A stretch of 64,000 nt of DNA, taken from Ruditapes philippinarum. Its lineage: Eukaryota. Where the stretch lies: assembly GCF_026571515.1 (NCBI RefSeq), contig NW_026855127.1, forward strand, positions 124,001-188,000, read 5' to 3'. The notes under the pieces were generated by a model. The model worked only from the letters and a program-made list of their open reading frames with translations. It was not told where the DNA came from and did not search any database. How positions within the stretch are numbered: the first letter of the stretch is position 1; each line of letters starts with the position of its first letter. Below, piece after piece: positions 19,701-46,900 of the stretch. The translations under genes were made by a program, and so were the position numbers.

Positions 19701-22700
19701 ACTAAAATAGTCCTTTCATGCAGTAGAAAAATGTTGAAAAATATTCGAAATCAGTCATTACATGTCATCTCTTACCTTAATCGTGAATCTTTTATTATAA
19801 TATTTTTCATTAAATCTTTGCATATTTTTCTCAATTTTATTTAGACATACAGCTTTAATGTATGGTCGGATTCAACGATTCAACGATATTTTAGTAATGT
19901 TTCGTTGCTAAAATGGGAAATTGCATCTGCTTCCATTGCATATGTAATCATAATAGAATGCAATGTATGAAGACTGTTGCTTGTTATTTTTGGACGCACC
20001 TTGTATTGTTCTTGTCATAAGAATCGTTTTTTTATGTCGGTTTTCTCGTTTTTGTTTAACAACTTTTTCTTTGAGCAAATTGTAGCTTTCTAGGGATGAA
20101 TAGCTCTTGTCGTTGGTTACAACATTTATAAGATGAATGTATGATTGGTTGGTGGGGCTATACATTGCACCAATACTGCAAAGGTCTGAAGGAAGACCTT
20201 AGCTGCCCCTTAGTGCATTGTTTCAGGCACGAGTGGGCACTTAAGTAGAACCACCGACGATACCTTAGTTAGCTGAATAGTTTCCTCCCATGAAACAGTT
20301 TGAAGTCAACGGGCTTAATCACTAGGCGAATGACGCCCAACGCGTGTACTTTAGCGTTGTTGTTGTTGTTTTATGTTTGTTTTATTTTTAATTTGCACGG
20401 TTTTCATGGTAAAACATCGAATATAGTAATTTATTTCATGCTTTCCACTGTTTTATTGCAATATATCAGATGATTTTATTCTGATAAACCATGAGTGAAA
20501 TTTATAAAATATAATTTTCACTGTAGCCGGACAATATCTGAATGCGGATGAAAAGAAAATCAAACTTAAACGGAATAACAGGCAAAAATAAATGCTGTCA
20601 TGCGTAAATTTTGCTTCTTTAAGAAAAGAAGGTCGATGTCACCATACACCATATTAAAAATGTAACAAAATTAAAGAAATTTAACAGAACTTTATTTCAA
20701 AATTGATGATGTGACATCATGATGTGATGACGTCACAAAAGAGAATGCACGACGTTACGCAGCGAAAGCAGTAAAAAAAATACTTAAAACCACTTAAAAA
20801 GAAAATTGATTTGTTATACATATAAGAAATATATTTCATTCGTGAACACAAGCTATTATAGTTTAACTCGCGGCTACGCCACTTGTGAAAATATTGCATC
20901 TGGTGTTCACTCAATGAAATTATATTTCAATCATACATGCAAAACAAATAATTTTCTCTATTGAATTATGAACGAAAGCAATTTTCAGTATTTGTGCATC
21001 ATTGAAATAATAAACAGTAAGATAAATAACCCATTAAAACAATCTAAATATTAAGCAAATTAATGTTATTAAATTGTATATGTGAATATAATGGTTTAAC
21101 GCTAAACTATATTATGTTTTTACAATTCAATAATACATGTACCAAAGAAAAAGTCAATATTTTTACAGATTACCAGGCCTGTTCACTGGCAACGGAATTT
21201 GAGTGCAAAAACTACCAATGTATTCCAAAGTACCAGGCTTGTGACGCTGTCCCACATTGTGTAGACGGTAGCGACGAGAAAGACTGTGGTAATATTTACT
21301 TATGAAAATCAGAATGTAGCAATTCAGATAAGACTTTATAACCAGTATCAACACCTTTTCTTGTATAAAGATAATAATTCACACAAATGATTATTCTATT
21401 TTTAGACCATGCGCACATACATAGCTTGATTAATAAATCAAATAAAGCGGGAAAATACAATTAATCAATTAACTTTATTGTATAAAGAACATTATTTACA
21501 GCAATACCAATGTTAGTAATAACAAAAACAAAAGGCCTGAAACAATCGTCTGGGATACAAGTGATGATTTTATTGAATAAATGATTTTAAAACCTTATCT
21601 TAAAATTATCATATTGTTTTCAGCAAACTGCAACATAAGTGTATCCTTTCCGTGTATAGACAAACGCTGCATTCCAAGGGAACTTCTTTTTGACAATCAT
21701 CCAGACTGCTTAAATGGCGAAGACGAAGATTATGGTAGAAGCTTTTACGAACTTCATTCGTGTGATGATGTGCTTCTTGCTGGTATCTGGGAATCTGGAA
21801 TATATTATATAGGTCAGTAATTAAACATTTTCGTGGTTTAGTTTTGAATTATTTAACCCGAAGTTAACGGAAATGCCATTTACTTGCACTTACGTTCCAA
21901 AGTTGTTTATGAACATGCTCAATCAAACCGAGCTTGCAACAGTTTCAATATTGCCGTTTTAGGCGTAATTTATGGATTGCTTTTTCACTTTTGCCACATC
22001 AGTGGTATAAGTGCCGTGTGAAAGCCTTGACAAGTTGCACGTATATTTAATTAAAGATGTCATATTTTCGATCTTTGAATATTGTTCAGCACAGGTTTGT
22101 GGTATTTTTAATTTCTTCTATATTGACCTTTTTCAGTTTGGGTGATTTTAGCATTCTTACTTAAATGCTGTATAATCACCCTTGGTGCCTGCTTTTCAAA
22201 ATTGTCTTTTGTCGTCTTGTCTGTGATGTGCAGGCTTCATAACCGTTGATCCCCTTTCAAAATTATTTGTGTTAGTTCTGCCAATTGTTATCTTGTTAAG
22301 GGCACACGCTTTCCTTACCTTGGGGACCAAACTCCGCTTTTCATGGAATAACACTCAAATGTCACATTCAAGGTTTCATGATGACCGTCGTTATCCGAAC
22401 CTGCAATATTTGCTATTTTGTCGTTTTGGGTGTTTTTTATGGATTCCGTTTTTCTCTATTTTACCTAGGAAATAATCATGTATACTACACATAAAATAAT
22501 AGCTAGTTTGATAGTCGTCCATAAAATATAAGTCGACACTTTAACATGAGTTGCTAAAGTTTATTTGAGTATTTCAATTATAATTGACGAATCAGGCGAT
22601 GTCATACAATTTGTTCACTTCGTATAACCTGTTTTTAGAATATAGATTTTTGTTTGCAAATGTAGAACGAAACTGATATCAATTAACCTTATTCTTATGT

Positions 22701-25700
22701 TTCAATGATTTCAGATACTCTTTACAATTTGAAAACCTTACTTAAAAGTACAGTTTGATTGTCAGCAGACCTGTTTTTTCTTCATTAATATTTAAACCCG
22801 ATCGATCAAAATAAAGTCGAAACGAAATTGAACCATGTTATGTTTCTAAAAGTAGAAAAGAAGAATCATATCGTCAGCGAATAAAAACAATATGAGTGTC
22901 AAGTCTGCTTTTTGTAAATTATCTTGTAGCTACCAGATGGACGGAGTGTATATTTGACTTTGACAATCAAACAATCACGATGACTATTTCAAATATAGAT
23001 TGGAGTCCCGGTTTCGAAGATAGAAGTATTTACTTGATCCCGTCAATGTTAGACTATAATGGTTACATCTGTTATCAGACGGTAAGGTCGTCTAAATGAT
23101 TTCCTCATAAAATTACAGAACGAAACAGATTTTTTTATCATCAAGGCCTTTATAGTTTCTGTTTCAGTAACGCCCCAAAGTTAGTTTTAGTCGCGTTTTG
23201 TAGTTTTTGTTTTAATCACTTTCTGTGATTGTTTCAACCACGTTCTGTTATTTTAGTTTCAATCACGTTCTGTTATCTAAGTATCAAATCACTTCATATT
23301 ACGTTTGTTTAAATCACGTGTTTTTGTTTCAATCACGTTGTGAATTGTTTTGTTATTATCTTTGTAACAGTTCCATCTAGATTTACCGATAAGCAGAACT
23401 ATGCTTAGTCAAGACAATAGTCTCTCTGAATGGAAGGAAAAGAGTATCAAACTTATTGGTAACAGCACAGAGGCCATTCTAAGAGGGTATACTTTTCTTT
23501 TAACCAATGAACTTCTTAAATTGTTTTTTTAATTAGATTTTTGGAACTGATCACAGCAATATTGGGGATACAAAGATGAAAAGTTTGTCAACAAACTGTA
23601 AATAGCTTTGTCAGTCTGCATGTATGTGCAGGGTGATCTGATTTATCGCTAATGGCAAACACTAATCACTAGGTCCATGGTTTACGCTTCATAGTTTTAA
23701 ACTCACACCGAGTAAATATTAAAAGACTTTTTAAACTATAAGGATTAGCCGATACAGTGCAGGAAATTAGGAACGTGTCTTTAAAATTTCAAAATAAATA
23801 AAAGTAAAAAGATCGATTGTTGTATGTCAGTTAAAGGGGCACGAGGGATGTTGCACTTATTTATTATCCCTCATGTACAGACTTAATCAAACCGAGTCTG
23901 CAATTTTTATGTAATTTTATTGTGATTAATGCTTCCGAGGGATCACTTTGTTTCCAGATTTTTATTTTGTATATTCTCTTCTTGAATGGGTTGGCCTTAT
24001 ATCATTCTTTATCGGTATCGGCTCGAATCCTTTATTGTACATTAAAATTGTTTATTTCAAATTGTTTGATCAATAATTAAAAGAACAAACGGTCAGTCTG
24101 AGATAAATCCTGTCTGGTTCCGTACCGACACTGTATTATTGTATTTAAGAACGCTAATAAACCGAGATGAATTCACTGGAAATGTGCAAGTCTCATTTGG
24201 TACGAATTACAATCGACAGAAATTAGCATTTGGAATTGGGCCAATCACCTGTGTTAAAAGTGAGTACAATGCTGAATTAAAGAAATACTGGATACATAAC
24301 ATTTAAAGATGAAACGCGCATCTCGGTTAAAGCCTTTTTAACGGTCACTTATAAATAAATTCTAAAATTCTAATTAAAGCAATTTAATTTACATGTAGGA
24401 GCTCATTCTTTTATAACAGCCTTTGATTAAAGAAATTGACGTTGATAGTCTTTACTTACTTTGTAACTATAACATTTATCACACACCCGTGTCGATTTTG
24501 CGACTCCGTAAATATGGTATTGCACGGCCGTGCATATATTTTGACGTGACGTCGTTAGCGTTATACAAACATAGTGTAAAGTTGCGCTAAATGTTACCGT
24601 TATACTATAGGCGCGTCGATGTAAAATGACTCTTATTTCACTTTTAACGGTCTTTATTTTGGGTATGTGATAAATAGAATATTAAATTCGTGTAAGTTCA
24701 TTTCTGAATTTATTGCACTCGTTGAATGAAATAATATTATATTTATTAATAATATAATTTATTCAACTTATGCAATAAATTCAGTATTGAACTTACACTC
24801 ATTCACTATCCTATATGTATTTTACTAGATTTGACAGACGGCATCCGAACGAACTTGATTGTACCAGAATACATTTCTGCACACGTGACTAAAGGGACCG
24901 AATGGAGGAATTTAACTTCTTGCGGCCTTCTAGCTAAACCAATATTTACAAAAAGATCATGTGTATTTGATGTTGACGGGCAAAAACCAGTTGAAGGTTG
25001 CAGATCACTTGAGCATCTTCAAAATTGTGGTATGGTACAAGCAAGTGCTGGCAGATACCAGTTCCTTTGTTTGGTTGTTTGTTTGATTACGACTTAAACA
25101 CATTTTTTGGAATTATCACTGCGACCGGTCTACTTAACAAACAAACTGTATAACTTACCACTGATACCTAATTTCTCTGAAAGTGACCAAAAATAATCCC
25201 AAATGGTTACTTCACCAGTGAGAGACAAATTACCATCAGACTCTCTGTCCGAGATCCATTAAAGCCTCGTCCCACAATTGAACAAGAGACCCTTAAATTA
25301 CTTTACAATACTGAATTAAATATGTTAACAATAAGTTAAAATATTTAAATAAGTAGTACTTTTATGCATACATAAAATTGTGCTTCATATATTAGTAAAA
25401 TGAATGAATAATTATAATCTAAAAATTTGATGATATGTCAAATCATCTGATGATGCCGATTAGAATAAATCTTTAAAACGATTTGGATAAGTCGCTGATC
25501 TCAATCATTACTTTTGTTATCATCAGTACATACAGATATGTGTTGATCTGTTCCCTATTATGTGTAATTTTATGTTTTGCAGAATTTATCAACTGCGAAC
25601 CGCATTATTTTAAATGCCCCGGAAGCTTTTGTATACCATATCATTTTGTATGTGACGGTCGGATTCATTGTCCAGATTCATTTGACGAAAGAAATTGTTG

Positions 25701-28700
25701 TAAGAATTTTTCATTCCTGTTATGTATTTGTATTCAGAATGTAAGTTGTACTCCGATAATCTAGTGTAACATTATTAATATTTCTTTCACGATTAACTTT
25801 TCAAATTTTAACATATCATGTGTAAAATTAATTGTTATTGTTTGGCATTACTTTAATAAAAAAGTTTAAAAATGTCCAGATTGAGGAAATTAATAGATAA
25901 ATATATAAAATATGTTTTAAATGTTATAAATTTTCTAATTTACACTTCAATATACAGACAAAAGGTTACTTGCAACACATGCAAACACATGCAAAAGACA
26001 CATTTGTGTCTCCCGTGGTGGTAAAAAAAATAAAATTAAAATATTCGTTTATCATATATACATCATGTCCTGTATGTGTTATTTTTCTTTTCAGCTTCAG
26101 GTGCAAGAATTAAAGGCATACTTATCTACTATATCGGTAAGGATGCGGAAATTGAAGATGCAGCACACAACTTGGCTTCACAAATGTTCTCAGAAGATAC
26201 ACATATTCAAATATTTTTCACTGTTAAGCATAACATCAAAATGACTGAAAATGGCCAGTCTTCTGTATATTTGGTCCGAACATATAACGTGTTATCAATG
26301 ACAGCACTTAGTAAGAAATATAAAAAGGAATATAATATTTCAATGGATAACTTTGAGAGTGATGTCGAAAAGCTGATACGTTTCAACGGCACGAATGAGA
26401 CTTTCTCCGTGTTCTTACAGAATGGGGAGCTACGTAAGAAAGAAGAAGACCTTTTCCATAAATTTGATGAGACGTTAGCGACTCAGTATAGGTTCAGAAT
26501 AGAAAAAGACGGTTCTTTCTACAAAAATCTACAGGTATCAATGTCAAAAGACGGAAAGACAAAATATTTAAAACTGAACAACTGGAAACTTTTAAGAAGT
26601 GGAGGGACATTGCTTTTTCCAGAAATATTTAGTGGTATGTATTTTCTTATAACAACTCATCGTTCAGTTTGATTACTTTGAGCTTGTTTGTTTTTCAAAG
26701 CAGACAAAAGCGTAACATTTCATTAAATATAGACAGTGAATTAGATAAAGGCGCAAAAAAAAGAAACAAAAAAAATTGCAAAGACTTAACAAAAAATAAC
26801 CCTGATGAAGACATGTGAGAGTCGAAACGTCGGTTATCATCATTAAATAACGTCGGTTATCATCATTAACTAAACCTTAAAACTTATCCTGTGTTGATTG
26901 TTCCGATTTGATTGATTTTCTTAAAAAATAAAATATATAAGCCTAGACTTGAAGTCTAATAATGTCACATTAAAATAGAGTAAGTAATAATTATGGGCAA
27001 TATATTTGTCTATGATTCCAAGTAAAGAAATCCTCAACGCAATATTCAAAGAAGAAAAACCCAAACACAAAAAATAGCAGAACTGTAATGAATTCCAGGA
27101 TAACTTGTTTAAATCTGCCTCCCTTACAAAACTTAATATCTGCAATTATATGATTTACAAAAGGGGAAAACTTAGTGTTACAGTTGATTTGTAATATAGT
27201 TTGCTGATAACTATTCAGATGTTTATATATTAGATAAAAGTGAGTATTGTGCTTAATTGGCGAAAGTTTCACGTTATATCTTTAAATGTGTTGTACATAA
27301 CACAAATGTTTTTCCTGACAGTATCTTAATAATCATTTTGTATCTTTTTACAGCTAACCACGGTTGTCATAATGCATTTCGATGTAGCTTTAGTCACGTG
27401 TGTCTACCTTTTGAACAAGTTTGTGACGGACGAAAACATTGTCCACACGGAGACGACGAGGATCTATGTCATTTTGTTTGTCCTAACAATTGCACATGTG
27501 AAGGGTACAGCTCATCATGTCCCAGTCTACAGTACAATGTTTTCAATTCGATATCAAGTCTTGTACGAATTCTAGATATAAACCATTGTAAGGGTTTAAA
27601 CGGAACGCTGGATATAAAAACAGACTTGTACTTTTTAATAGAACTCAATGTTTCATTTTCAAACATACGACTCATCCATAATGAGTCATTTGCTCATACA
27701 AGAAATATTCTGATTCTAGATTTAAGTTACAATTTACTATCGTTTATTCAAAAAGAGATATTCAAAGATCTGAGGTTTATAAGGATACTTTTACTTGAGG
27801 GAAACGAACTCATTTCTACAATAGAACCAAACGCCTTTTATGGTTTAGGACTAAAACATCTTTCTGTTACACACACAATGCTACAAGTTGTATCCAGGCG
27901 AATCTTTAATGGATTCAATGCAACGAAACTAGATTTATCATATAACACTATCGAAACAATTGAAGACAATGCATTTGAGGGATTGCACGTTGAAGAACTA
28001 GATATAACGTTTAATCCCATTAAAAACTTTGGAAAAGCAATGTTTACAGGCGTAACCGGTTTGCAAAAATTAAAAACTCCGATGTACAAATTTTGTTGCA
28101 TGCGCCCGATTTATTTGGAAGAGAATAAATGCTTTCCACATCAAGATGAGTTTTCATCCTGCGGAGATTTAATGAGAAGAACCAGTCTACAGTTTTTGCT
28201 ATGGATCATAGCAGTTCTTGCTATTGTTGGTAATATTCTGTCTGTGGTATTCAGAATGGTCTTCGACAAGAAACGCATCAAAATGGTGTATGGAATTTTC
28301 GTGACCAATTTAGCATTTTCCGACATGTTGATGGGATTTTATATGCTTATTATAGCTATTGCTGACAGACTGTACCATGATAGGTGACTTTTTATGCCCC
28401 CACAGAGTGGGAGCATATAGCGTTGCACTTGTCCGTCCGAGTGTCCGTACGTCTGTCCGTCCGTCCGTCTGTCCGTACGTCCCGAAATCTTTTGAACGCA
28501 ACTCCTCTTAAACCGGATGGCAGATTTCGCTTAAACTTACAGGGATGAACAACCTTAATGTGTAGATGGTAGCAAAGGAAGGAATTTTTGCTGCGACCAA
28601 ATTTAACAGAATTATGGCCCTTTGTTGATTTTTTCACTATATACTATGTAGAAATTTTGTGAACGCAACTCCTCTTAAACCGAATGGCAGATTTTGCTTA

Positions 28701-31421
28701 AACTTACAGGGATGAACAACCTTAATGTGTAAATGGCAGTAAAGGGAGGAATTTTTGCTGCGACCAAATTTAACAGAATTATTGCCCTTGGTTGATTTTT
28801 TCACTATATACTATGTAGAAATTTTGTGAATGCAATTCCTCTTACACCGGATGGCAGATTTTGCTTAAGCTTTCAGGGATGAACAACCTTAATGTGTAGA
28901 TGGTAGTATCCGTGTCCTATGGACACATTTCTAGTTCTAGTTAGGTCTTGTCTGTTTCATCTTTTAAAATATCTAAGATGTATTTTTCTTTACATAATTT
29001 AAGAACCTGGACAAAAGTTTTCTTTTCTAGTTTTACTTTTTTATATTTACGTTGTTATATGTAAACCACCTGTTTCATCTTGGAAATCGATTGGGTTAAG
29101 TTAAGGTAAAAGAATTAAGCAAACAAAATCTGTTTTCGTTTGTGTTACTATTAAGACATAAAGATAAAGATAAAGTAACAGCATTGTTCACTGAATGTTT
29201 CTTTGATATTACAATTAGAATGTATCGTAACTATTTCTGTTTCGTATTACATTCGTACCGTAAGGTTCTGTTTCAATAGATACATAGAGGAAGACGAACG
29301 CTGGAGAAGCAGTGGATGGTGCAGCCTGGCTGGAATTATGTCAACAGTCTCCTCCGAGGCAAGTGTCCTTTTCGTTTGCTTGATTACTATCGATCGGCTC
29401 CTGGTTATCAAATATCCCTTTGGTTCTTTTAAGATATCGACAAGGCAGGCTAAAATTGTAGTGTCAATTTGTTGGTCTATTTGCTTGATTGTTGCCGTTA
29501 TTCCAATCATTGAATCTAAATATTTTGGAAACCAGTTCTATTCAAAATCAGGGGTTTGCCTGGCACTACCTCTTTCAAAAGAACGCTCCCCCGGATGGCT
29601 TTACTCTGTACTCATATTTATTGGATTCAATTTCGTTACATTCATCTTGATCGCACTCGGTCAAATTCTTATCTTCTGCGAAGTGAGACGGGCTGCGTCA
29701 ACTATGAAAAAGAAGAGTTCTGCAAGACGAAATGACCTGAAAGTTGCAAGAAATCTTCTGCTTCTTGTCGGAACAGATTTTGCCTGCTGGTTTCCAATTG
29801 GTTGCATGGGTAAATATTAATTTCACGTAGTTTTCATTAACATATAAATGTTATAGAATACAAATGTAATTACACTAGGCAAAATTGATATTAAGTGTTC
29901 TTCTACTCAAAAGTATCGCTTGCAGCTCATAAACTTGAAAATTCACCATGATAATGATGTTCGAATGCAAAAGACATTTTATTGATTATTGAGAATACAA
30001 GTCTAAAAAATGTTCATGAACCAACATAATTCCATGTTGAGCATAGCACTGATACGTTTTTAGGTATTATGACATTACATGGGTATTCTATACCTGGGGA
30101 GGTTTATGCTTGGACTGCAGTTCTAGTTTTACCTATCAATTCAGCTATCAATCCATTCCTATATACACTGATGGCAATCATTAGCAAGAAGGTAAATTGT
30201 TTATTTTCACTGCTTTGAAACATCCTTTATTTTTCGTCTGTTGTTAAAAAAAAGTTCTAAAGCGAAAAACATGTCCTTGTGCCATGCTGCATTTTAAACA
30301 AATTCTGCGATTGTTTATTGGGTCTTACGTTTTTTGTCGATTTTTAATTCCCACAAAAGTGTATTTGTTCTTCATTGTTTTCGAAGCATGTTACATCTTG
30401 TTATTCCGTTTGCCATAAATGCAAATTAAACCTACATTTCATTTTACTAGAGTTTTAACCCAAGTGAAGATGAACAATCGCGCCCTGAGGACATTGAAGG
30501 TAAGTTAGTATAGATAAAATTTTAACAAACAGAAATTTTCAATAGGTTTAAACATAGATCTATCATATACAGAAATACATTTTCCCCATAGAATAATAAC
30601 TTTATTAATTATTGATGTACGTTTTAGATACCTAGCTATTTGATAGATATTTAGTATAAAAATAGGTCTCATGATTGACCAAACACTTGTAAATTGTTAA
30701 TTAATTACTTAAAAGACTATTATATATATTTGATTTATTTTAAAGAAAAAAGGTCAGCATTTTTGCGGGCATGTCAAGGTCTATGGTTCCCGGATCCTGA
30801 CATCAAATACGAAGTTCATCAGTTAACTAGTGATATCATTACGCAGTTGAAGCCTGCAGAGCGTTTGATGATCTTTGCTAAAATGTTCAAAAGTTTACAT
30901 CTGCACCATAGGCATGGATTGTTATTCAAGAATTTAGACACGGAAAAGGTTTTGGTTTACTTGCGAGGAGGGCAAATCGTATGTATTATAATCTTGTCCT
31001 TATCGTTTGTATTTCTTTCAGAACTTTGTTGCGTTTAGTTTATCATTACTTGATTAAATCTTGTTTGATAAAGTTTGTAAATATAGAGGAATTATTTGCC
31101 AAGAGAAACTTTTTTTTTATTTTCGAAAGAGACGATATTTTAAGCAGACATTAGCATTTGTTGATCTTTAGTTACCAACTAAACTTAATCTCCGATCAGC
31201 CTTCACCGTTTTCTTGTCCGTTGATTTCTTATAAATGTCAATTTAAAAATATTTCTTTACTATTTTTATCTGTTTCAAGGAAGTTCTGTTTATGAATATT
31301 CTTTCAGATTAGTGGCGGTGGTCTTAGAATCATCCACAAACCAACGCCTTTTTCAAGAAAAACAGAATCGAAGCAAGACATGTACATTGCGGGGATACTT
31401 TTACGACCTTTAACAAAATGA
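1..31421 (+). CDS. Giant multi-exon GRL101-like / LGR type C GPCR (LDLa-LRR-7TM) with a mosaic lectin/CUB/discoidin ectodomain and a kinase-like tail; 5' incomplete
   Basis: Hand-assembled exons, all GT-AG and phase-compatible: <5-162, 680-796, 3951-4033, 4626-4770, 5214-5237, 8366-8501, 9034-9158, 9800-9975, 10540-10713, 11021-11171, 11382-11723, 12095-12309, 12597-12846, 14019-14219, 14737-14973, 16120-16161, 16352-16570, 17260-17338, 17856-18052, 18651-18806, 19342-19455, 21169-21288, 21624-21812, 22930-23081, 23371-23486, 24150-24259, 24829-25029, 25583-25699, 26095-26634, 27354-28383, 29280-29809, 30064-30191, 30451-30499, 30746-30978, 31308-31421 (TGA). The sum is 6970 nt with no internal stop. 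LGR-C hallmarks: hinge [21 protein letters not shown]6 [11 protein letters not shown]7 [12 protein letters not shown]. Confidence 0.85.
1053..1438 (+). mobile_element. Mariner (DD34D) transposon 3' fragment, frameshifted, with right TIR
   Basis: LLHDNAPFH...[16 protein letters not shown] has exactly 34 residues between the two Asp. It continues in another frame as [26 protein letters not shown]. The end ...ttctgacatcccctcg|TA (reverse complement TACGAGGGGATGTCAGAAA) is a mariner-type terminus with a TA target. Confidence 0.92.
1531..1666. repeat. 22-bp minisatellite, 6 copies (TCCATTGATGTAGTAAGTGGAT)
   Basis: Head-to-tail near-identical units; one has a 4-nt insertion and one a T>A change. 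Confidence 0.95.
8366..9158 (+). CDS. Exons 6-7: N-terminal half of a C-type-lectin-like domain
   Basis: W..CYY...C..GRYVTLLS...IYVSV resembles CTLD beta1-alpha1-alpha2-beta2. Splice sites: tag|CC, AG|gtgatt, cag|G, G|gtaaga. Confidence 0.55.
8932..9010 (+). mobile_element. 3' fragment of tRNA-derived SINE with (AAAC)n tail
   Basis: ctccaccagtaaagccagaacgtcgc..tgtgtcggtgcgacgtaaaac matches the 3' end of the copy at 12926-13151. Confidence 0.75.
9205..9680. repeat. Degenerate (GAT/AAT)n trinucleotide low-complexity tract
   Basis: Runs of gatgat/ataata; explains the Ile-rich spurious ORF 9168-9677. Confidence 0.9.
9800..11171 (+). CDS. Exons 8-10: F5/8 type C (discoidin) domain
   Basis: [32 protein letters not shown]|VDL..VDGI...[20 protein letters not shown] is the canonical FA58C pattern. 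Confidence 0.92.
11382..11723 (+). CDS. Exon 11: PAN/apple-like domain
   Basis: [20 protein letters not shown]...CNLYS (C-x3-C-x6-C..C-x-L) in a symmetric phase 1-1 exon. Confidence 0.75.
12095..14973 (+). CDS. Exons 12-15: two divergent CUB domains
   Basis: CUB1: [26 protein letters not shown]...LYMYFWT..GRGFRA. CUB2: [34 protein letters not shown]. Confidence 0.8.
12835..13640. repeat. Degenerate ~41-bp tandem array (consensus approx. aaagtgattttcagaaggtttatatttaattgactgaggac), interrupted by the SINE
   Basis: Recurrent ttttcagaaggttt..acaaagt units at roughly 40-bp spacing. Confidence 0.7.
12926..13151 (+). mobile_element. 5'-truncated tRNA-derived SINE with 13-bp TSD
   Basis: B-box GTTCAAATCC, body gaggaagctatccagctagcttacgg..gcccgctcgtgcc..aataatgcacggagaggcacctgagg, (ACA)n tail. 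Flanked by tttgattgattaa at 12913-12925 and 13152-13164. Confidence 0.88.
16120..18052 (+). CDS. Exons 16-19: C-type lectin domain
   Basis: [61 protein letters not shown]. Confidence 0.92.
18651..21812 (+). CDS. Exons 20-23: four LDL-receptor class A repeats (first and fourth lack one Cys pair) plus the start of the fibrinogen-like module
   Basis: [24 protein letters not shown]; [29 protein letters not shown]; [31 protein letters not shown]; [28 protein letters not shown]. All exons are phase 1-1. Confidence 0.92.
20184..20330 (-). mobile_element. Degenerate SINE copy (same family as 12926-13151)
   Basis: Reverse complement reads gaggaaactattcagctaac..gtcggtggttctac..gtgcccactcgtgcctgaaacaatgcac..ggggcagctaaggtcttcc. 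Confidence 0.75.
21750..24259 (+). CDS. Exon 23 (3' part) to exon 26: shortened Caspr/neurexin-IV-type fibrinogen-like module
   Basis: [39 protein letters not shown] parallels the Caspr pattern SCExY..G..SGxYxI..CxM..CEQxF..EW..YxLGPLxC. Confidence 0.6.
24829..25699 (+). CDS. Exons 27-28: GRL101-type Cys module plus LDLa repeat
   Basis: [24 protein letters not shown] followed by [35 protein letters not shown]. Confidence 0.85.
26095..26634 (+). CDS. Exon 29: 180-aa Cys-free alpha/beta domain, probably a degenerate vWA domain
   Basis: 540-nt open exon with strong sites (tttttcttttcag| and G|gtatgt), phase 1-1. Alternating beta/alpha segments GILIYYIG / [12 protein letters not shown] / IQIFFTV / FESDVEKLI / FSVFLQNG / [10 protein letters not shown]. 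Confidence 0.7.
26796..26860 (+). ncRNA. Minimal type I hammerhead ribozyme motif (Penelope-like) with a duplicated substrate strand
   Basis: ataacc-CTGATGA-a-GAC(atgtgaga)GTC-GAAA-CG-TC-ggttat. Stem I ataacc/ggttat, intact core, GUC triplet; AACGTCGGTTATCATCATTA is repeated directly downstream. Confidence 0.75.
27354..28383 (+). CDS. Exon 30: LDLa, LRRNT, about 7 LRRs, hinge, TM1-TM2
   Basis: [16 protein letters not shown]; CPNNCTC; LxxLDLSYN repeats; [13 protein letters not shown]; AIVGN; NLAFSD. Confidence 0.96.
28389..28936 (+). mobile_element. Non-autonomous Helentron-associated (HINE/DINE-1/pearl-like) element with internal 167-bp tandem repeats
   Basis: Starts TTTTTATGCCCCC, then a (GTCC/GTCT)n microsatellite and about 2.5 near-identical 167-bp units (starts 28494, 28661, 28828). 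It ends with a 3' hairpin gtgtcc-tat-ggacac and ATTTCTAGTT. Confidence 0.85.
29280..30191 (+). CDS. Exons 31-32: TM3-TM7 of the LGR 7TM domain
   Basis: [21 protein letters not shown]; [11 protein letters not shown]; NFVTF; TDFACWFPI; [12 protein letters not shown]. Confidence 0.96.
30451..31421 (+). CDS. Exons 33-35: cytoplasmic tail with a protein-kinase C-lobe remnant (pseudokinase-like)
   Basis: [37 protein letters not shown] resembles alphaE plus the catalytic loop (..GLxYLHxxG+IHRDLKPxNILV). [13 protein letters not shown] resembles alphaF (xKSDVWSxGVLL). Splice phases 0-1-0, stop at 31419-31421. Confidence 0.7.
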
Positions 31422-33350: not shown

Positions 33351-34172
33351 CGGCAAGGAGCCCAGGAGGATCCCAAACAAAAACAGGGAAGGGCATAAGG
33401 CAGAGCACGGGCATGCAAACCACTACCTAAGAATAAATAATTAGAAACTGATAAGGAACTAAAAGAAAACAAATAATAGATTGAATATTAGGCCCATAAA
33501 GTCAAAAGGCACAAGGGAAGGGGACATGAAGACCTAAGATGTCCTTAAGATCAGTAAAATTAAGCACAATAAAGTACTTGAGTACAGAACGTACCTTTGT
33601 AAATTAGCAGAGTTATTTCTAATAATGTTCCTAGGTTAATAAAGCACACAGCGGTAAGGAAAACCGGCCGCTATGTAATTACAATGCAAAAGCGGCGGTT
33701 CCATAAAAAATGTTTACGTTGTTAATGGTAAGCATTTGCGTGTCAACGTTTTTGTAGGTGGAGTTTTTTTAAGTATTTTGTTAAATTAAATCTGTTAGGC
33801 CAAGCAAGTAAATGTTATCAGTTCTACTGAGAAGTACATTATGTATTTAAGTAAATGGAACTGGATTAAAGCATGTTTCGATAATCTCTTTGGCGATAAC
33901 ACAGTCTTTGACCTTCAAATCGTGAAATATCAAACTGAGTATGTATCTTTACTGAAAACATTTGCTTCCATTTATATTTTAATAAAATAAAAAGCAACAT
34001 TTGAAATACATTTCATTATCATCACATGAGATTCTGAAGCTATAAACTTCATACAATTCTTTTTATTTGCTTCATGACGCGAGTATCGCGAAATTCTTAA
34101 TAATACATTAATATACATAATCGAGAAAAACTGAATCCCCTAAACAAAGTCTAGCACAGGAAAATTAAAAAA

Positions 34173-34410
34173 GGTTGCAAGCTCGGTTTGATTGAGTCTG
34201 TTCATGGACGGTAATGGACATAGTTACCCTCTAAGCCCACTAACAACGGTTTAAACAGAATTCAACATTTAAATAAAGAAATGGTGAAATTTTGAATTAA
34301 GAAACATCCACAGATGTGTTCATACGACCGTTATCATGAAAACTTCAATGTGACACAGTAGTGCTATTCCATGAAAAGCGGTGTATGGTCCCAACGTAAA
34401 AGAATGCGTT
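34173..34410 (+). repeat. Representative copy of a locally abundant dispersed repeat (core tgcaggctcggtttgattgagcctgttcatgga)
   Basis: Related segments at about 21830-21940(-), 22166-22400(-), 23830-23903(-), 41503-41524(-), 43755-43850(+), 44709-45021(-), 53395-53426(+), 53878-53910(-), 63471-63577(+). Confidence 0.8.
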
Positions 34411-37400
34411 TTTCCCCTCAAAGAATCATTTTGAACAAACTACTTAACATTTTATCTTTTTTGTTGCTGTTGTTGTTTCCTTGCCAATTTGTTATTTTCA
34501 CGTTCTTATTGAGGTCCTATATATTTTAATGTTCTTAATTTTAAAAGCAATAAGACTAAAAATAGTCTAAAAATAGAAATTGTGTTTTTCATTTTATTTA
34601 TTTCCCACAAGACACACTCATATACTGTGTTGAATTTTCAACTGAATATTGCCTTAGGTTTCACAGCTAAATTACACAAATTCAATTTTCGTTTTAAAAC
34701 CTTTTAAAAGCAAGAACGCATTAAGATTCAAAGTATGACTGAAAATGACGGTGACGGATAAATAGGGTTTTAAATTTTACAGAAAACATATTAGGCACAT
34801 TGCAAGTGTACAATCTATTTTGGTTAAACCTGATTATTTTTTAAGTGGATTTGCATTGCACAGTCCATAGAAAGTCAAACGGATTTCTATATCAAAATAT
34901 TAAAATATTGCTACCAAAAGTATAGAGCCTGGTCAGATTTCACAGATGTACATAATGGCCTTGGTCTATGCTGGTTGCAAAGGCTAATGGTCAGTTCCAG
35001 TTTACGTTGATACGAAGGGTCACAGTTTTTTTCTATAGACATACAGGATAACGAGAATTGTTTTATATAATATATCCTTTAAAAAAATCCAACATTAAAG
35101 AATTAGTTAACAAAAACATTTTATAATTAGCGAACGAAATAGGTGGTCCTTTTCCTTTTTTTGCGAATTTTCTGCATTTTATTTTCGGTCATGCTGGACA
35201 GGCTACAGGCTAACATTCTCTAAAAACAATATAAAATTATTTTTTGCTCTTTCTAAAGAAGTATAAATCTATTTATTTCCGAGGCGTTAATGTCTTAAAC
35301 TGGCTGGTTCATCTTTAATATCAACATACAGAATCATACAGGATCATCAATAACACTTTTATGCGTATGTATCTGGTTGCATTTTGCAGGGATCTTACTG
35401 TCACTTGTTACTGTCAAACTTTATTATCTATTAAAAATGTTTGCAGAAAAAACAAATAAGCCATAATCAGTAACTGTAAGTAACTGTAGGTATTTAAGAT
35501 AGTATGAAGATAATATATGATTCTTAAAGAAACATAATAAATGTTTAGAATGGTACGTGATATATTTGATTTTTGGAGTTAAATACGTAAACTAATTTCA
35601 TGACACAAACACATCCCATAGAGACATACAAAACAAACAAAGTACAAAACTATATATAGAAAGATTCATATTTTATATGAATTACTTATATAAGAATACT
35701 TGTTTATCTAAATATATTATGCTTTGTACTACAAAAAGTCCTTTGAGACGCACCTACGCTTAATTATTGACGTCACAAAAACTTCTTTATAAAAGAATAC
35801 TCCAGAGCATCAATATGCTATTGACACTGGATTTAGTTTAATGGATATAATGAATTCCTTAAAATAGAACAATAACTGTAAGAATGCATTAACAGTTTTT
35901 TGGGATGGGGAATGGGAACGAGAAAAACATTATCAAATTATCAGGTTGTTCAATAGTTTAGAAGAAATTTACAATAAGTAAATTTTATTTATAATTTATT
36001 GAATTGATTTTTATAACTTATTGAATTGAATCATGATGTTTCCTGTGAAAATATCAATTTTCTCGAGTAATTCATTATATACTATTAGTCTGATTTTGTT
36101 TAGGATTCATTTTCAATTTAGTTTGAAATGTGTTGTTTACAGTAAAGTCAGACCAAAAGCACTCAACCCAAGCAAAATGTCTGGTGGTTTTCCTCGAGGC
36201 ATGATCGTTTTTTTTAATCGGCGATATGTTCTTTTTGTATATAAAGTGTTTAAATATTCGTGAAAAGACCATTTTTTCGAATCAACCGTTAATACACAAT
36301 GTGTCTGATTCCGTTACATTATCGTTTTATGTATTAGTTTGGAGGTGTTTTAATGCAATAGAAAGCCAAAAGCAGCAAAACAAGCAAAACTTCCGGGAGA
36401 CGTTTGATTGTTTTATTGTTTTTGTTTTTTTTTGGTTTTTTTTGTTGTTGTTTGTTCTTTTTTGACCGGCTATTGGTTCCTTCTTTATGTACAAAGTGTA
36501 TACATTTTCGTTAACGGCCTATAGTAAATGATATTATGACTGACTCGTTTTGATGGTCGGGCGGGGGTTGCGTTCATTGAACGCCAGCTTTCCTTGAAGA
36601 TCTTGTTTATCATATTTATTTTGACTTTATCGTTTTTGTACCTGTTATGAATTTAGTCATCTGGACGTGTTCACTAAAGTAGAAAATTACCCCTGTCAAT
36701 CACTTTAAAAGAAAAATGCCGATTTACATCGTTGACATTTTTACAATCCTCACATTTAATTTTAAAGCTTATTATAGTTTTGTATGTATTTTATCAGGAT
36801 TACATTTAGATACATGGATGGTAAGTAAAGGTTGGTGATTTAAATCATGAGATAGTAATGGTTGCCGGTTTCGCCCATTTCAAACCCGCGTAAAATTTAA
36901 TCGTTTTATCATAAAATGTCGCGAGTAACTTACAAATCCACGAGATTTTCTGTCGAAATCGTACGAAATTTTGCGAGGAACGTCTAAACCTCGGTATTTT
37001 ATAGCAATTGTTGGAAACGGTAAAGAAAAATTTGACTTCAGTGGCCGGTAGCGTCCATGCTTTGACACCAGATTTTATATCATATTAAAAGTCATTGCTC
37101 CTTTAGCATAACTTGAATGTAATGATGTATCATTGCAACAATTAAAAACAGTTGAAACACAACGAATTGGAACATTAATTGCTTCAATTTCTATATTTTG
37201 ATTATATTTTTGCCCTTTTATTTAAAAGTAACATTTATTTCTCTCACTTTACTTCGACAAAGATTGATTAATCTGTTCGCTTTATGGCGGAACATTTAAT
37301 GCTCACATCTCATTTGGGAATTACCATTATATTTGACGTGGTGTTCGAAAATTTTCTTTGTGTATATCATCTTAATAGTAATCTCTTTCTAATTTCGGGG

Positions 37401-40930: not shown

Positions 40931-43900
40931 AAGTAAGATAATATCAATTTACATACATGACCTAAAACAAGCGTTTTGCTAATTGTCCCTAGAATATTGA
41001 TAACATTGATGTCTTATTATGACTCATTGTTCTTTTACACATCAGTAACTCTTTATCTGTTATCGTCTCTAGAGATCATGTCTTCTTGTTTTCTTTCTCT
41101 GGAGTATAAAACGTGAAAGCCTTTCTTCAATAAGATTAATTTGAGGCAAAATATATTGTTCTCTCTCTGAAATAGTTCTATAGTTTTTGTCCGCTTTGTT
41201 AATATCAAGTAACGTAAATCCTTTCTTAGACAAAACCCGCCAGTTATTATGATATATAAATATACATTTATCAGGTCTTTAATACGATGAAAGCGTCGTG
41301 TAAAAAAAATCAAGATAAAATTTAAAAACGTATGTGTTGATTTAAGCATTTTTGGACCCACCTCAATACAGGTCAGTACCATATGTGTAACTGTCTTACG
41401 ACTACAAACCTTCAATTGAGTAAATTTGAATCAATAAACTTCATTGCAGTACTACAAATATCTTCGCAGTTTCATTTTTAATCTAGTCAGGTTTCAGTAA
41501 GGACTCAGTAAAACCGAGCCTGCGATTGACAGATATGTGTTCTTCTATGCTTTATTGTTATTAAAGAATGTGTACTTAAGGATATCCTTAGTAGCATGAC
41601 TGAACAGCTTAACTATACAGCAACAAACTGAATTTTGAAAGTTTTACTATTTACCCTGTTGGAACATGAAGAATAAAGCCTTTGCCACAAGTGTTTGGCC
41701 AAGCCAGCAAGCACATTCACAGCCGGCATTTACCATTTTGCCCGATTTGTCTCCGATAGCCCGCGAAGCACAGGCTCATGTCAGCCTTTTGAATGCATAT
41801 TAAGTCTGCTGGTATGAAACACGAACATTTTTGAGAGCGTGTATTTTCATAACATGATTTTTTCTCCATTAATGTTTCATGAAATCAAAATACTGCATAT
41901 TTTCTTCTTTTGTTTTTAGAACCGTAATTTACGACGCTTTCAATCTTTTAAATTCAGGAAAACATCTAAAAAAATAGGGAGTGACAAAACGTATTCTTAT
42001 TATGGAAAGTCATACTCGTAGTTTGATGACAGTTCTTGGAATAGTTCATATAAATACTTTTCGATGATACTTTTCTTAACAATCTTTTAAAATATCTTAG
42101 ATGTCTGCATTGTACATCCTTGTAATTCTTTGTAAGATATGATCTGGAAAATTTAGATTATGGCTTTTAAGAAAAGGTACGATGAAACTTGCCACATAAA
42201 AATAATTAAAACACTTTTGCTGAATTTGAACACAGCAAAACAGGAAAAAAGTTATTAAATTCATACTCGACGACCCTCAATCTGGTCAGCTTTAATTCTT
42301 GAACTGTCTGTAAACAATTTTTGGTATTCAATATAATAATTCAAAGTTAGTCAGGCAACAATATGGAGCCTTCTAAGACTTGATGGATATGCAGTTTGTC
42401 TGTGTTAGAGGACAATTAATATTAGTCATGGGTTTAGTGTAGTTTGGCCTTCAGAAAGGCAAACCTGTACTAAAATCCAATTCACATTTCTGCCTACAGT
42501 TTAAGACTATGAAATATAATAGAATGAATGCAAAAAAGGAGAGAAAACTTGTTTGTCAAAGTAAACATTCCTATTCTCAAGTATATATAAAACTTTCACA
42601 AGTAAGTAGATCTATGAATGATGGTGGTGAATGTTTCAGATTTATTAAAACCACTAAGTTATATAACTGTTTTACTAAATATATAATTTATTCATTGAAT
42701 ATATAAGTGTTACAAGGTCTGTAAGAATAAATATAATATTAAACTAAACAAACATATGTACCATTTTTATAAGCGACTATTTTCAAACGTCTGAGTATTC
42801 TTGATGACCTTTTGTACACGACCAGGATTTTGTTTTCGTTAACATGATATTGAGAAGAAAGTATGTTTGTTACTGATTACTAGTATATATATATATTTGT
42901 AAATTTTCTATAGTGTCTACAGCAAATCCACGTCTAGCCGGATTTGTCAATATTTTTATTTGCCCTGCTAGTTTTCATACGCTAATGGACACTCCTTACA
43001 AAGTAACTTTCAATTATTTCTGAACTGACATAAAAGACAAATATCTGGGAAACCTTTCCGTTTTTATAAGAAGATACCGGTATATGTCTTAGTTTGCTAA
43101 CACTTATTTTCTATTCAGTACATATGAAAGTTGTATCTATATTTCATATTTAAGTAAACTACATTAACGACATTTATAGTAAGCTGATAAAAAGATTTTT
43201 TTCTTTGCGCAATGTATCACAACTTAAAAATACCATGTTCAATGTGTACACAATTTATAAAATTTAACAGAAAACCCACATTAAACCCCTTTTTAGCTTA
43301 ACAAATAGAAAATTTAAAATTTTAAATTTTTTAAAAAATCTTTTTAACTTTTTTGGTGACTTTTTTATAAAACCCAAAAACACACAATTGTAATTAAAAT
43401 TTCCCAAAAGGTTAAAACGTCTGTAGGGTTTTTTTCAACGAAGAAAAACAACGTGCAATGTAAGACTTTTTCCCCAATATGCAATGTTTTTTGCCTTTAA
43501 GGGTGGGGCATGGGAATTGCGCCCCCGTTTTACCCCCCAATCTGACTTTAAGGGGCGCTTAATGGGTTCAAATTACTGGGAATCAAAAATACTCTAGCAG
43601 ATTAGATATTTTTACCCATGGTTTTGGGCTAAAAGGGTTTTGTAACACCCCGATTTTAGCCAAAACATCTTTCCGGGGTTTGGCGCCATATCGCCATATA
43701 TAACGAAAAATAGTATCCCTAAAGAAAGCTCAACACGAAAAAGTTAAAAAAATATGCAGATTTGGTTTGATTGAGCCTGTTCTTGGACGGTACTGGAAAT
43801 TGCTAAGTGACCATCCACACCCCTAGCTACGGCTTAAGCAGAACACGAAAATGGAAAAAGTTTTGGATTAATTGCGTTGGTGATGATATCTTTTCAATTT

Positions 43901-46900
43901 CAAATTTTTACACTTTAGCTAGCATTGAATGCATTTAACAAAGCAAGATGAAGTTAAGGTTGTTTAAGGCTTTCTATTATGAAGTCAGTTAAGTGATACT
44001 TTCATATAGTTGCAAGATTTATTATCTGTTCTTAGTAATTCTTCAAGATTAAGAGATACAGTGATTAGAAGACATGCCAAAAAAGAAAAAGAAATGCATA
44101 AAAACAAAATAATAAAAATCACTATAGAGACAAACAACAAATATATAAATTATACGTAAAATGAAGAATAGTGAAATAATTCACCTTTTATCGTAAAATC
44201 TTGTGTTCTCATTTCCCTACAGAATTCATTTTATTGATCGACTTGCTTTTATTACCGTATAGCATGGCGATAAAACTGCTCTTTAGTAAATGAATCTTTT
44301 GTCAGCGGTACAAATGACACGTTAATGGGAAACACTTTTACATTGAATACAAATTAGATACTTTAGACTGAAGTGATGAAGTGTAACATTACCTGTGAGC
44401 TTTTAGTTCATAACGAACACTAAGACATTTCTTAAAAAATTATAGATTTTGATGACAGGAATTATCGGTAGCATCTGCGGTTCTTTATGGATTCTGTTTT
44501 TCTCTATTATATTGCCATATAAATGTTGTTTTTGCCATGTTACGGCTTTAAAAAGCCTCCCCGTACATTTAATCAAAGATGTTAGATTTTCGATCATTGA
44601 AGATCGTTCAGGACGACATTATCGTGTGTTTACATGTAATGTGGATTTTTATTTGTTTCTTCTTTCGGCTTTTTTCAACTTGGGTGATTCCAGTATTCCT
44701 ACTTGAATACTGTATAATCACCCTTAGGAAACGTTGTCTTTTTAAATTTGTCTTTTGACGTCTTGTCTGTGATATACAGTCTTCATAACCTCAGATCCCC
44801 TTTCAAAATTCCATTTTATTTAGTTCAGCCTATTTTTGTCTTCTTTAGGACACATACATTCTTTTACTTCGGAACCATACGCCGCTTTTTATGGAATTGC
44901 ATTACTGTGTCAAATTGAAGGTTCCATGATAGCCGCCATATGAACACATCTGCGGATGTTTCTAAATTAAAAATTTCACCCTTTTCGTGTTTAAATGTTG
45001 AATTCTGCTTAAGCCGGTGCTTTCTTCTCCATTAATGTTTATCTGACTGTGCAGTTTTTATGCAGAAATCCCTTTATAAGATACGATTATAATACATTAA
45101 ATAATTGAAAAAAATATGATTAGAATCATGATCAAAGGAACATCAAAAAAAGTATTGATAGTAATGGTGTAAGAGTTCAAAGCAAATTAATGGTTAAATT
45201 AATTAGTATAATTTAAAGGGCATTACTTTTATTATTCTTTGAAAAAGTTGAAAAAAAAGAAACAAATTGAATAACAAATTAAATTGTTTAATATGCAATT
45301 TTCATATACATGTATCGTCTGCTTGTTAATAAACCCCTTGCAATGAGATACGACTATCAACATTGAAAACAAAAATAAAAAAGTGAAGATTCATTGCATC
45401 ATTTTGAATGAAATTGTTCCATAATTGTTTTCAAATCAATGAAACGTTAGACATTATACGTTAACAAATCACTTTTATAAAAATGATAGACACGGGGTTT
45501 CCTGCAAGAACCGTGAAAAAATGTCAACGAAAATCTCCCAGTAGACCATCAACGTTACTTTAGGAATTTGAATAACAAAGACAATAAATCATACTTAAAG
45601 GCGGATTTACAAGATACTTTCAACACAATTTACTTGTCACAACTTACAGACATTCAGACCGGAGAAATTATCTAAACGATTTTGATCGCGGCCATCATGT
45701 GAATGTATGATGAAAGGTAGTATTCAAACATCCAAAAATAATATCTGATATCATTATCAATATTAAAATATTTCAAATATCATTGAATGTAAGAGGATTT
45801 TATATTTCCATTATTTGGTGTGACAAAAAACATAAGTCATTAGAATCAAATATTTAACTTTGTTTTACTCTGAAAATAAAGAGAATCAAGGCGATATTAC
45901 AATCTGTGAAAACACTTGCTAATATGTGAATATACAGTTCAATGAAACCTAAATAAATGTTATTTATATTAATCGCATTCGGACAACAATGTATTATAAA
46001 TACCATAATAAAGCGTTAATTTGTGAGCATTTAAATATACAATTTTAATTTGTGCATTGCACCTACCTTGATGGCAATCATTTGAACCTTTGACAAATGC
46101 GTCAGTAGTTCGAGGCTTTAGATATGTAGTGTTCAACCTGGTCGAAATTCGAATTTTGAAAGCGATGTTCTTCATAATTTTTCTTTAAAGCAAATAAAAT
46201 CATTTGGTTTAATTTATTATTCTATTTTATAACAGTAACTAATATACTAGAGGATTTTGCAGCTGTGTTCTATAAGAATATTATTATGAGAATGATTTAT
46301 AAGGTAAAGCTATATTGTTTGAGTTTTATGTTGAATGGAATTGAACAGATACATGAGGTTAATGACATTTACCACAATTCATAAATATACATAAGGAATT
46401 TAATTTTTTTTATATATATTTTCTAAAGAGGTCTAATAAGTTTATAATGAAAAAGTATGTATGTATTTAAATACTAATGAATTCGTATCAAATGCAATTA
46501 AATATTGCTAAGTTACCACTTTGGTTTTCATTTAGTATAATGGGAAAGGTTTAAATTAAAGTTGCATTAACGTTTTGAAACCCTTAAATTTAAATAGAAG
46601 AAATAAATTGACAATTTCATGATTTGTGTTATGTGTATATAGTAGTAAATTGCTGAATTGGTATATTCAACACTGTGTGCAATCGAAATCAAATTTTGAT
46701 TATAAATATGATAAAATTTTGAAACCATATAAATATTCAAATAAAGATACCGACAAAGCTGTTTTTCAAGAAGCCTTACTAATATTTGTGAAAGCTATTG
46801 AATATCAGAAATGCATCACATTACATAGTCTATTATAAACAAAGTACTCAAGAATCCGACTTGTAGTTTTTAAGTATTTATTTTTGGTCTCATTCCACTC

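What the first reader, a model, noticed from the sequence alone, without database searches (positions are those of the whole stretch)
26796..26868. Sense-strand intronic hammerhead whose local duplication may rebuild a functional stem III
Seen: a complete hammerhead core with stem I ataacc 26796-26801, CUGAUGA 26802-26808, an extra A, stem II GAC/GUC, GAAA 26824-26827, a GUC site and ggttat. As a monomer, stem III is only 1 bp around CG. The 20-nt duplication AACGTCGGTTATCATCATTA supplies a second ACGUC-GGUUAU. ACGU 26827-26830 can then pair with ACGU 26850-26853 (4-bp stem III, 19-nt loop), predicting cleavage after C26854. Established: minimal hammerheads of Penelope-like elements have palindromic stem III loops and work mainly as dimers. 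Inference: the pre-mRNA could self-cleave in the intron between most of the ectodomain and the LRR-7TM exons, tuning expression or yielding ectodomain-only RNA. It may equally be an inert Penelope relic.
Basis: partly seen in the sequence, partly recalled or inferred. Interest (0 to 1): 0.7.

Follow-up and report, generated by a model that had tools for sequence, protein, structure and literature searches.

The report
Penelope hammerhead stub in GPCR intron
A real minimal hammerhead-ribozyme motif lies in an intron of a receptor gene as the truncated tail of a Penelope-like jumping gene, and its small duplication is likely a copying slip that would give at most weak self-cutting, so this is probably an ordinary inert relic.

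Summary
The hammerhead is real and every coordinate checks. It is the 3' end of a 5'-truncated Penelope-like element (PLE): 127 nt, flanked by a 9-nt target-site duplication, from a young family whose long copy L050 has two hammerhead repeats around an RT + GIY-YIG ORF. The 1-bp stem III is the family norm (39 of 39). The 23-nt duplication does permit the proposed 4-bp stem III. Against a function: that fold is predicted 6 kcal/mol above the ensemble (natural dimer similar); this copy has two stem II changes; an independent duplication of the same segment sits in a copy with a broken core (L002); RNA reads show no ends at the cut site and no excess of upstream exon, though the gene is barely covered. 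Verdict: likely an inert stub with a neutral copying slip; weak in-vitro cleavage is not excluded. Whether raw reads hold the duplication stayed untested. The scan noted similar inert hammerhead stubs elsewhere in this genome, not this stretch.

The parts
26791..26799 (+). Left target-site duplication (9 nt); its last 4 nt double as the start of stem I (microhomology at the 5' truncation point)
   Evidence: same 9-mer at 26923-26931
26796..26922 (+). 5'-truncated stub of a Neptune-like Penelope element: hammerhead plus 3' tail of the pseudo-LTR
   Evidence: aligns to the last ~107 nt of the family element; 6 substitutions, a 4-nt deletion and the 23-nt duplication against young copy L006
26796..26801 (+). 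Stem I, 5' strand
26802..26809 (+). Core CUGAUGA plus the extra A between positions 9 and 10.1 that is typical of PLE hammerheads
   Evidence: PMC4209133
26810..26823 (+). Stem II, reduced to 3 contiguous bp by two changes at 26813-26814 (family: 5 bp with a 4-nt loop)
   Evidence: position 26813 is T in 43 of 43 other copies covering it, 26814 is C in 41 of 43
26824..26831 (+). GAAA, palindromic ACGU (26827-30) and monomer-register GUC (C17 = 26831)
26832..26837 (+). Proximal stem I 3' strand, used in the predicted inactive lowest-energy fold
26826..26871 (+). Tandem duplication, period 23 nt, 21 nt identical, copies differ at 26847/26870
   Evidence: one of 2 such duplications found genome-wide
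26850..26860 (+). Second ACGU-C-GGUUAU, the candidate substrate strand; predicted cut after C26854; also folds into a local 5-bp hairpin 26847-26860
26923..26931 (+). Right target-site duplication
26635..27353 (+). Host intron (719 nt, GT-AG, phase 1)
26095..26634 (+). Upstream host exon (540 nt, open, no Pfam hit)
27354..28383 (+). Downstream host exon: LDLa, leucine-rich repeats, start of the 7TM region

Best explanation
This is the 5'-truncated tail of a Penelope-like retroelement, carrying the family's minimal type I hammerhead, inserted sense into a GPCR intron, and its 23-nt duplication is likely a neutral copying slip that leaves the ribozyme predicted to be inactive or far too slow to affect splicing. 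Shown: family membership, target-site duplication, truncation at the start of stem I, 1-bp stem III as the family state, decay of stem II, a second independent duplication in a copy with a broken core. Inferred: the polymerase (most likely the element's reverse transcriptase during insertion, otherwise DNA replication later) paused just 3' of the stem II hairpin, slipped back to an AA microhomology and recopied the segment. Inferred: in the nascent pre-mRNA the proximal GGUUAU appears first and traps stem I together with core-to-CGUC pairing, the duplicated strand folds on itself, and the intron is spliced before any cut matters.
For: Family: 52 matches from 167 candidates, 40 scored; 41 matches from 213 candidates, best copies 96-100% identical to L006. 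L050 is a partial tandem with two hammerheads 3837 nt apart around a 740-aa ORF with RVT_1 (E 1.7e-11) and GIY-YIG (E 2.2e-6). Same 9-nt word flanks the stub. 39 of 39 matches to a pattern that allowed a longer stem III have none. Stem II change at 26813 is unique among 43 other copies. Duplications starting at the same 6 nt were found in 2 loci, periods 23 and 19 nt; the other (L002) has GAAA changed to AAAA and differs at 13 of 104 positions. Active fold: P 4e-5 at 37 C on 86 nt, 1e-6 to 3e-6 in longer context; a control with short loop III and family stem II gives 2e-2. MFE no better than shuffles, z -0.45. PMC4209133: a helix III mimicking the dimer, placed in one motif, cleaved mostly at non-physiological Mg2+ and far below canonical ribozymes. 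PMC2995048 passages: introns cut by a hammerhead were still spliced in cited in-vivo work. RNA: no molecule ends at 26854/26855; upstream exon has zero depth in 4 of 4 runs, downstream exon low depth in 2 of 4.
Against: The nearest-neighbour model is a weak judge here: the family's natural dimer scores the same +6.2 kcal/mol at 1 M, and the model ignores Mg2+ and core stacking. All core and stem I letters, and the whole second substrate strand, are intact in this copy although it has drifted elsewhere; the finding was picked for that, so this is biased. Infernal's only hammerhead alignment uses the duplication register. The insertion is present in animals of at least two studies (contigs bridging the left junction in X4 and the right junction in X12), so it is not a private new insert. 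Host coverage in RNA was too low (depth under 4, 4-12% of each run read) to detect a minor cleavage product, and no spliced joint of the gene was listed. The recurrence argument rests on two loci.
Confidence: 0.85

Rival explanations
1. The duplication makes a weak monomer ribozyme that cuts measurably in vitro at high Mg2+, but too slowly to matter in the cell. This overlaps with the best explanation as regards function; it differs in the bench outcome.
For: Complete three-way junction can be drawn; Infernal register; energy gap equal to that of the natural dimer but without needing a second molecule; engineered helix III gave some cleavage in PMC4209133.
Against: Two competing folds (proximal stem I trap, junction hairpin 26847-26860), stem III formed in about 1e-3 or less of the ensemble; weakened stem II lowers the active share about 4-fold; upstream element sequence that could extend stem I is lost by truncation.
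Confidence: 0.3
2. One reading: a co-opted monomer-active ribozyme cuts the GPCR pre-mRNA and tunes expression or yields ectodomain-only RNA.
For: Sense orientation, intact core, intact second substrate strand; precedent for intronic ribozyme regulation (Cpeb3, PMC10919898 abstract) and conserved amniote intronic hammerheads (PMC6155905 passages).
Against: Young transposon origin with target-site duplication; stem II decay; same duplication type in a copy with a broken core; only 499 nt to the 3' splice site; no ends at the site and zero upstream-exon reads while the downstream exon has some (low coverage); hammerhead-cut introns can still splice.
Confidence: 0.05
3. The duplication is an assembly or polishing artefact.
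For: No contig piece listed spans the duplication junction (588 pieces were not shown). The X1 contig from the unique flank stops at 26825 with 4 differences, which would fit a family-type allele in that animal (inference from where it ends).
Against: The two copies differ at one position, as expected of an aged duplication; a similar event of different length exists at L002.
Confidence: 0.07

Closest known systems
Minimal type I hammerheads of metazoan Penelope-like elements, variant with a small palindromic helix III (Cervera and de la Pena 2014, PMC4209133; read: parts 1-2 of 4, abstract to methods)
   Same: Type I topology, extra nucleotide between 9 and 10.1, G10.1-C11.1 pair, palindromic 15.2-16.2 region, location in the pseudo-LTR, mostly single motifs from truncated copies.
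   Different: This copy has a local duplication that supplies a second substrate strand in cis, a natural analogue of the paper's engineered helix III; its stem II is decayed.
Neptune-clade EN+ Penelope-like elements (Craig et al. 2021, PMC8557442; read: passages)
   Same: [quoted passage not shown]
   Different: No tree was built, so Neptune versus Nematis is not settled; the parent has a second ORF with C2H2-like fingers.
Domesticated intronic ribozymes: amniote RECK-type hammerheads (PMC6155905, passages) and the HDV-like Cpeb3 ribozyme (PMC10919898, abstract)
   Same: Sense-strand self-cleaving motif inside an intron.
   Different: Those are conserved across species; this one is a recent transposon stub, decaying, without shown activity or conservation.
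Animal non-LTR retrozymes (bioRxiv 10.64898/2026.07.22.740005; read: part 1 of 5)
   Same: Type I hammerhead of PLE origin.
   Different: No tandem array here: one hammerhead in the 64-kb window, flanked by a target-site duplication.

Membership tests
Type I hammerhead (sequence and fold) | Core CUGANGA, GAAA and NUH with stems I and II | tested here: met
   0 of 40 shuffles with 6-bp stem I
Type I hammerhead (sequence and fold) | Stem III able to form in a single molecule | tested here: inconclusive
   1 bp in the proximal register; 4 bp via the duplication, predicted P about 1e-3 or less
Type I hammerhead (sequence and fold) | Self-cleavage after C17 | not testable with these tools
   no molecule ends at the site, but coverage too low to test
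Type I hammerhead (sequence and fold) | Rfam hammerhead model above gathering score | tested here: not met
   (16.1 vs 56.3 bits); intact family copy also fails, so no weight
Canonical fast hammerheads | Loop I - loop II tertiary contact | tested here: inconclusive
   element sequence 5' of stem I is absent through truncation; no contact was modelled
PLE minimal hammerhead | Extra nucleotide between 9 and 10.1; G10.1-C11.1 | tested here: met
   A26809; G26810-C26823
PLE minimal hammerhead | Palindromic helix III region | tested here: met
   ACGU 26827-30; same in 39 of 39 pattern matches
PLE minimal hammerhead | Located in the pseudo-LTR of an RT + GIY-YIG element | tested here: met
   L050: two hammerheads 3837 nt apart around a 740-aa RT + GIY-YIG ORF
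EN+ PLE, Neptune clade | [quoted passage not shown] | tested here: met
   read from the L050 translation against motifs in PMC8557442
EN+ PLE, Neptune clade | RT phylogeny places it in Neptune | not tested
   no reference sequences fetched
Non-LTR retrozyme | Tandem repeats, each with a hammerhead | tested here: not met
   single site in the window
Domesticated intronic ribozyme | Conservation at the orthologous site across species | not testable with these tools
   no relatives held for G000; no paralog of the flanking exon found (1 match of 16 candidates)

The most novel reading that the evidence does not exclude
A polymerase stutter at the ribozyme core has turned a dimer-only Penelope hammerhead into a natural single-molecule ribozyme ('half a dimer' in cis) that cuts the GPCR pre-mRNA often enough to alter its output: a snapshot of how monomer-active intronic hammerheads arise from transposons.
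Probability: 0.05. Interest if true: 0.6.

Novelty: new member of a known kind. Interest (0 to 1): 0.2.

Why it matters
As an inert stub it matters little: such motifs occur in large numbers in animal genomes (PMC4209133). If the duplication did activate it, it would show a one-step route from a dimer-dependent transposon ribozyme to a monomer-active intronic one, the origin proposed for conserved amniote intronic hammerheads. The test is a cheap in-vitro assay. The side observations on the parent family (truncation hot spot at the ribozyme, second zinc-finger ORF) may be more useful for PLE biology than the locus itself.

Tried and rejected
Rfam on 4 kb and on 141 nt: no hammerhead at gathering level; uninformative because an intact copy also fails. 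The paper on dimer cleavage by small PLE hammerheads (PMC5785218) is not held; I saw only its title in a reference list and the review's summary. The look-up of sequencing runs: no RNA holder listed, not used as evidence. DNA contigs of 4 runs: no listed piece spans the duplication junction, 588 pieces and 147 loose ends not shown, so the artefact question stays open; both read-laying runs are used. Paralog search with the upstream exon found only itself, so no paralogous empty intron could be compared. Search for an older subfamily closer to this copy's tail: none, best 89%. Atlas look-up of the upstream exon gave no answer. The idea that the short stem III is decay was rejected. Loss of the tail's AAUAAA in both duplicate copies was considered as a sign of selection against intronic polyadenylation and dropped: AUUAAA remains at 26842-47 and such words are common in this AT-rich DNA. 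(26 matches) fixes the stem III sequence in its pattern and was not used for the stem III claim. Literature searches showed no listing that describes a natural local duplication rebuilding stem III of a PLE hammerhead; I judged most hits by title and abstract start only, and subscription journals are largely missing. Supplements of PMC4209133 (kinetics, fig. S6) were not opened and may bear on the rate claim.

Full report
Observation. Stem I (6 bp), CUGAUGA, an extra A, a 3-bp stem II, GAAA, and GUC followed by the stem I partner are present, once in a proximal register (C17 = 26831, stem III 1 bp) and once in a distal register (C17 = 26854, stem III 4 bp, 19-nt loop). The repeat is 21 nt identical with a period of 23 nt. 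My descriptor finds no other site on either strand of the window; 0 of 40 shuffled windows gave a site with a 6-bp stem I. Rfam gives no hammerhead hit on 4 kb and a sub-threshold RAGATH-1 match in the distal register on 141 nt; an intact family copy gives none.

Host gene. The motif is on the + strand of a 719-nt GT-AG intron, 26635-27353. The downstream exon encodes an LDLa repeat and leucine-rich repeats, and a later exon matches 7tm_1; several LDLa-like exons lie upstream. Four consecutive exons join without a stop (my third junction was set one base off on both sides, which keeps the frame). The label GRL101-like for this architecture is recalled, not from a call. The LRR region is itself ectodomain, so a cut here would give a fragment lacking the LRRs.

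What the motif belongs to. A genome search with 26690-26960 returned 52 matches from 167 candidates, 40 scored, nearly all confined to the hammerhead and its tail; a young copy as query gave 41 matches from 213 candidates. These counts are lower bounds. Longer copies share up to 3.3 kb upstream. [quoted passage not shown] The window copy is the last ~107 nt of this element, flanked by a 9-nt target-site duplication. Of 46 distinct loci (of 69 fetched up to L069, after I removed re-fetches of the same place and copies sharing one flank), 17 break off 36-43 nt upstream of the cut site, at the start of stem I, as the window copy does; my queries favour copies with a whole hammerhead, so the share is biased.

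Stem III is short by descent. With a pattern that allowed 0-30 extra letters in stem III, 39 of 39 matches had none. This is the palindromic-helix-III variant described in PMC4209133, thought to work as a dimer. The window copy is older than most: against L006 it has 6 substitutions and a 4-nt deletion besides the duplication. Two changes fall in stem II and cut it from 5 contiguous pairs to 3; the change at 26813 is seen in 0 of 43 other copies. The core and stem I are intact.

The duplication. An exact pattern found it only here (the reversed control had 11 matches). Two looser patterns each found 2 loci: this one and L002. L002 has a 19-nt duplication that starts at the same six letters, but its GAAA is changed to AAAA and it differs from the family at 13 of 104 positions. 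That G is the general base of the hammerhead (recalled), so L002 would be dead. Two independent events of different length, one in a broken ribozyme, point to a mutational hot spot, not to selection, although the order of duplication and core mutation in L002 is unknown. The 5' junction of the near-full-length copy L053 also falls at those six letters. My inference is a pause just 3' of the stem II hairpin followed by a slip to an AA microhomology, during reverse transcription or later replication. This rests on three loci.

Would the rebuilt fold form? ViennaRNA's lowest-energy fold pairs stem I with the proximal strand, ties the core to CGUC, and folds the duplicated strand into its own 5-bp hairpin (z -0.45 against shuffles). 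The active fold has P 4e-5 at 37 C on 86 nt, 5e-6 at 20 C, and 1e-6 to 3e-6 at 37 C in 181-366 nt of context. Controls: restoring the family stem II raises P about 4-fold; shortening the loop and restoring stem II gives 2e-2. Against my reading, the natural double hammerhead of two young copies also lies 6.2 kcal/mol above two monomers at 1 M, the same gap as the duplication fold, so this model cannot rule out weak activity. The closest experiment in print that I read is the engineered helix III of PMC4209133, which cleaved mostly at non-physiological Mg2+ and far below canonical rates (supplement not opened).

Would a cut matter? The predicted site is 499 nt from the 3' splice site. PMC2995048 (passages) cites transcription at 3.8 kb per minute, splicing within 5-10 minutes, and in-vivo work in which hammerhead-cut introns were still spliced while a fast HDV ribozyme blocked splicing; these are mammalian data. 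A slow, rarely folded hammerhead would therefore be unlikely to change the mRNA (inference).

Reads. DNA contigs of four runs from four studies: X4 bridges the left junction (26500-26847) and X12 the right junction (26863-26997, 11 differences); X1 stops 30 letters into the element, one short of the tool's bridging rule. No listed piece spans the duplication junction. RNA, four runs from two studies, 4-12% of each read: reads on the stub come mostly from other copies (family letter at 26813 in 13 of 16 and 14 of 15 reads; at 26870 in 54 of 65, 50 of 58, 42 of 42 and 63 of 63). No pile of molecule ends lies at 26854/26855. The upstream exon has zero depth in all four runs; the downstream exon has depth up to 3.9 per direction in X21 and X22 and zero in X23 and X24. 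This is the opposite of an ectodomain-only excess, but the coverage is too low for a test and no spliced joint of the gene was listed.

Comparison and verdict. By sequence, fold and location it is a member of the minimal type I hammerheads of PLEs; activity is untested. It is not a retrozyme array (single copy) and shows nothing of the conservation of domesticated intronic ribozymes (PMC6155905 passages; PMC10919898 abstract). Earlier notes of this scan describe another inert hammerhead stub in this genome and call the host a clam (unchecked, not tested here); none matches this stretch. Best reading: inert PLE stub with a neutral duplication, 0.85. Weak in-vitro cleavage without function, 0.3 (overlaps with the first). 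Co-opted regulator, 0.05. Artefact, 0.07. Interest 0.2.

Noticed in passing
L050:1326-1955 (- strand); also L041:1449-1904, L033:6325-6879: The parent PLE has a second ORF (197 aa from Met, open in L050) with C2H2-like fingers between the RT-EN ORF and the 3' pseudo-LTR; Pfam zf-C2H2 E about 1e-3, below cut-off. PLEs are described as single-ORF; a paper search for this gave 0 hits.
   Followed up: partly
L050:4168-4719 (- strand): A 184-aa ORF with no Pfam hit precedes the RT-EN ORF; it may be its N-terminal part split by a frameshift or stop in the copies seen.
   Followed up: partly
family loci L001-L069: 5' truncation hot spot: 17 of 46 distinct loci start 36-43 nt upstream of the cut site, only 4 in the next ~65 nt; either a reverse-transcriptase stop at the ribozyme or microhomology at the T-run. 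Query bias applies.
   Followed up: partly
L028 (~1501), L053 (~3198): L028 begins exactly at the predicted cleavage site; the near-full-length L053 begins 6 nt upstream of it, where both duplications start.
   Followed up: partly
window 26095-26634: Open 180-codon phase-1/phase-1 exon with no Pfam hit and no paralog; two SNPs shared by three DNA runs fall on third codon positions; zero RNA reads in four runs while downstream exons have some: possibly skipped, or a downstream start.
   Followed up: partly
window 28389-28984: 167-nt tandem repeat (3 copies) in the next intron, with very high RNA depth from other genomic copies.
   Followed up: no
window 24674-24814: 60-nt-arm inverted repeat with high RNA depth from other copies; MITE-like.
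   Followed up: no
window 34138-34415, 43700-43862, 44848-45021, 53376-53949, 63420-63580, 21896-22462, 23860-23921: A dispersed repeat family with several copies on both strands of the window (families D9-D19, I1-I14).
   Followed up: no
window 62457 and below (- strand): A 356-codon open frame that looks like the start of another rhodopsin-type GPCR by eye; not scanned.
   Followed up: no
window 30742-30990: Exon after the 7TM region with an HRH..FKNLD stretch, resembling a kinase-like C-terminal domain by eye; not scanned.
   Followed up: no
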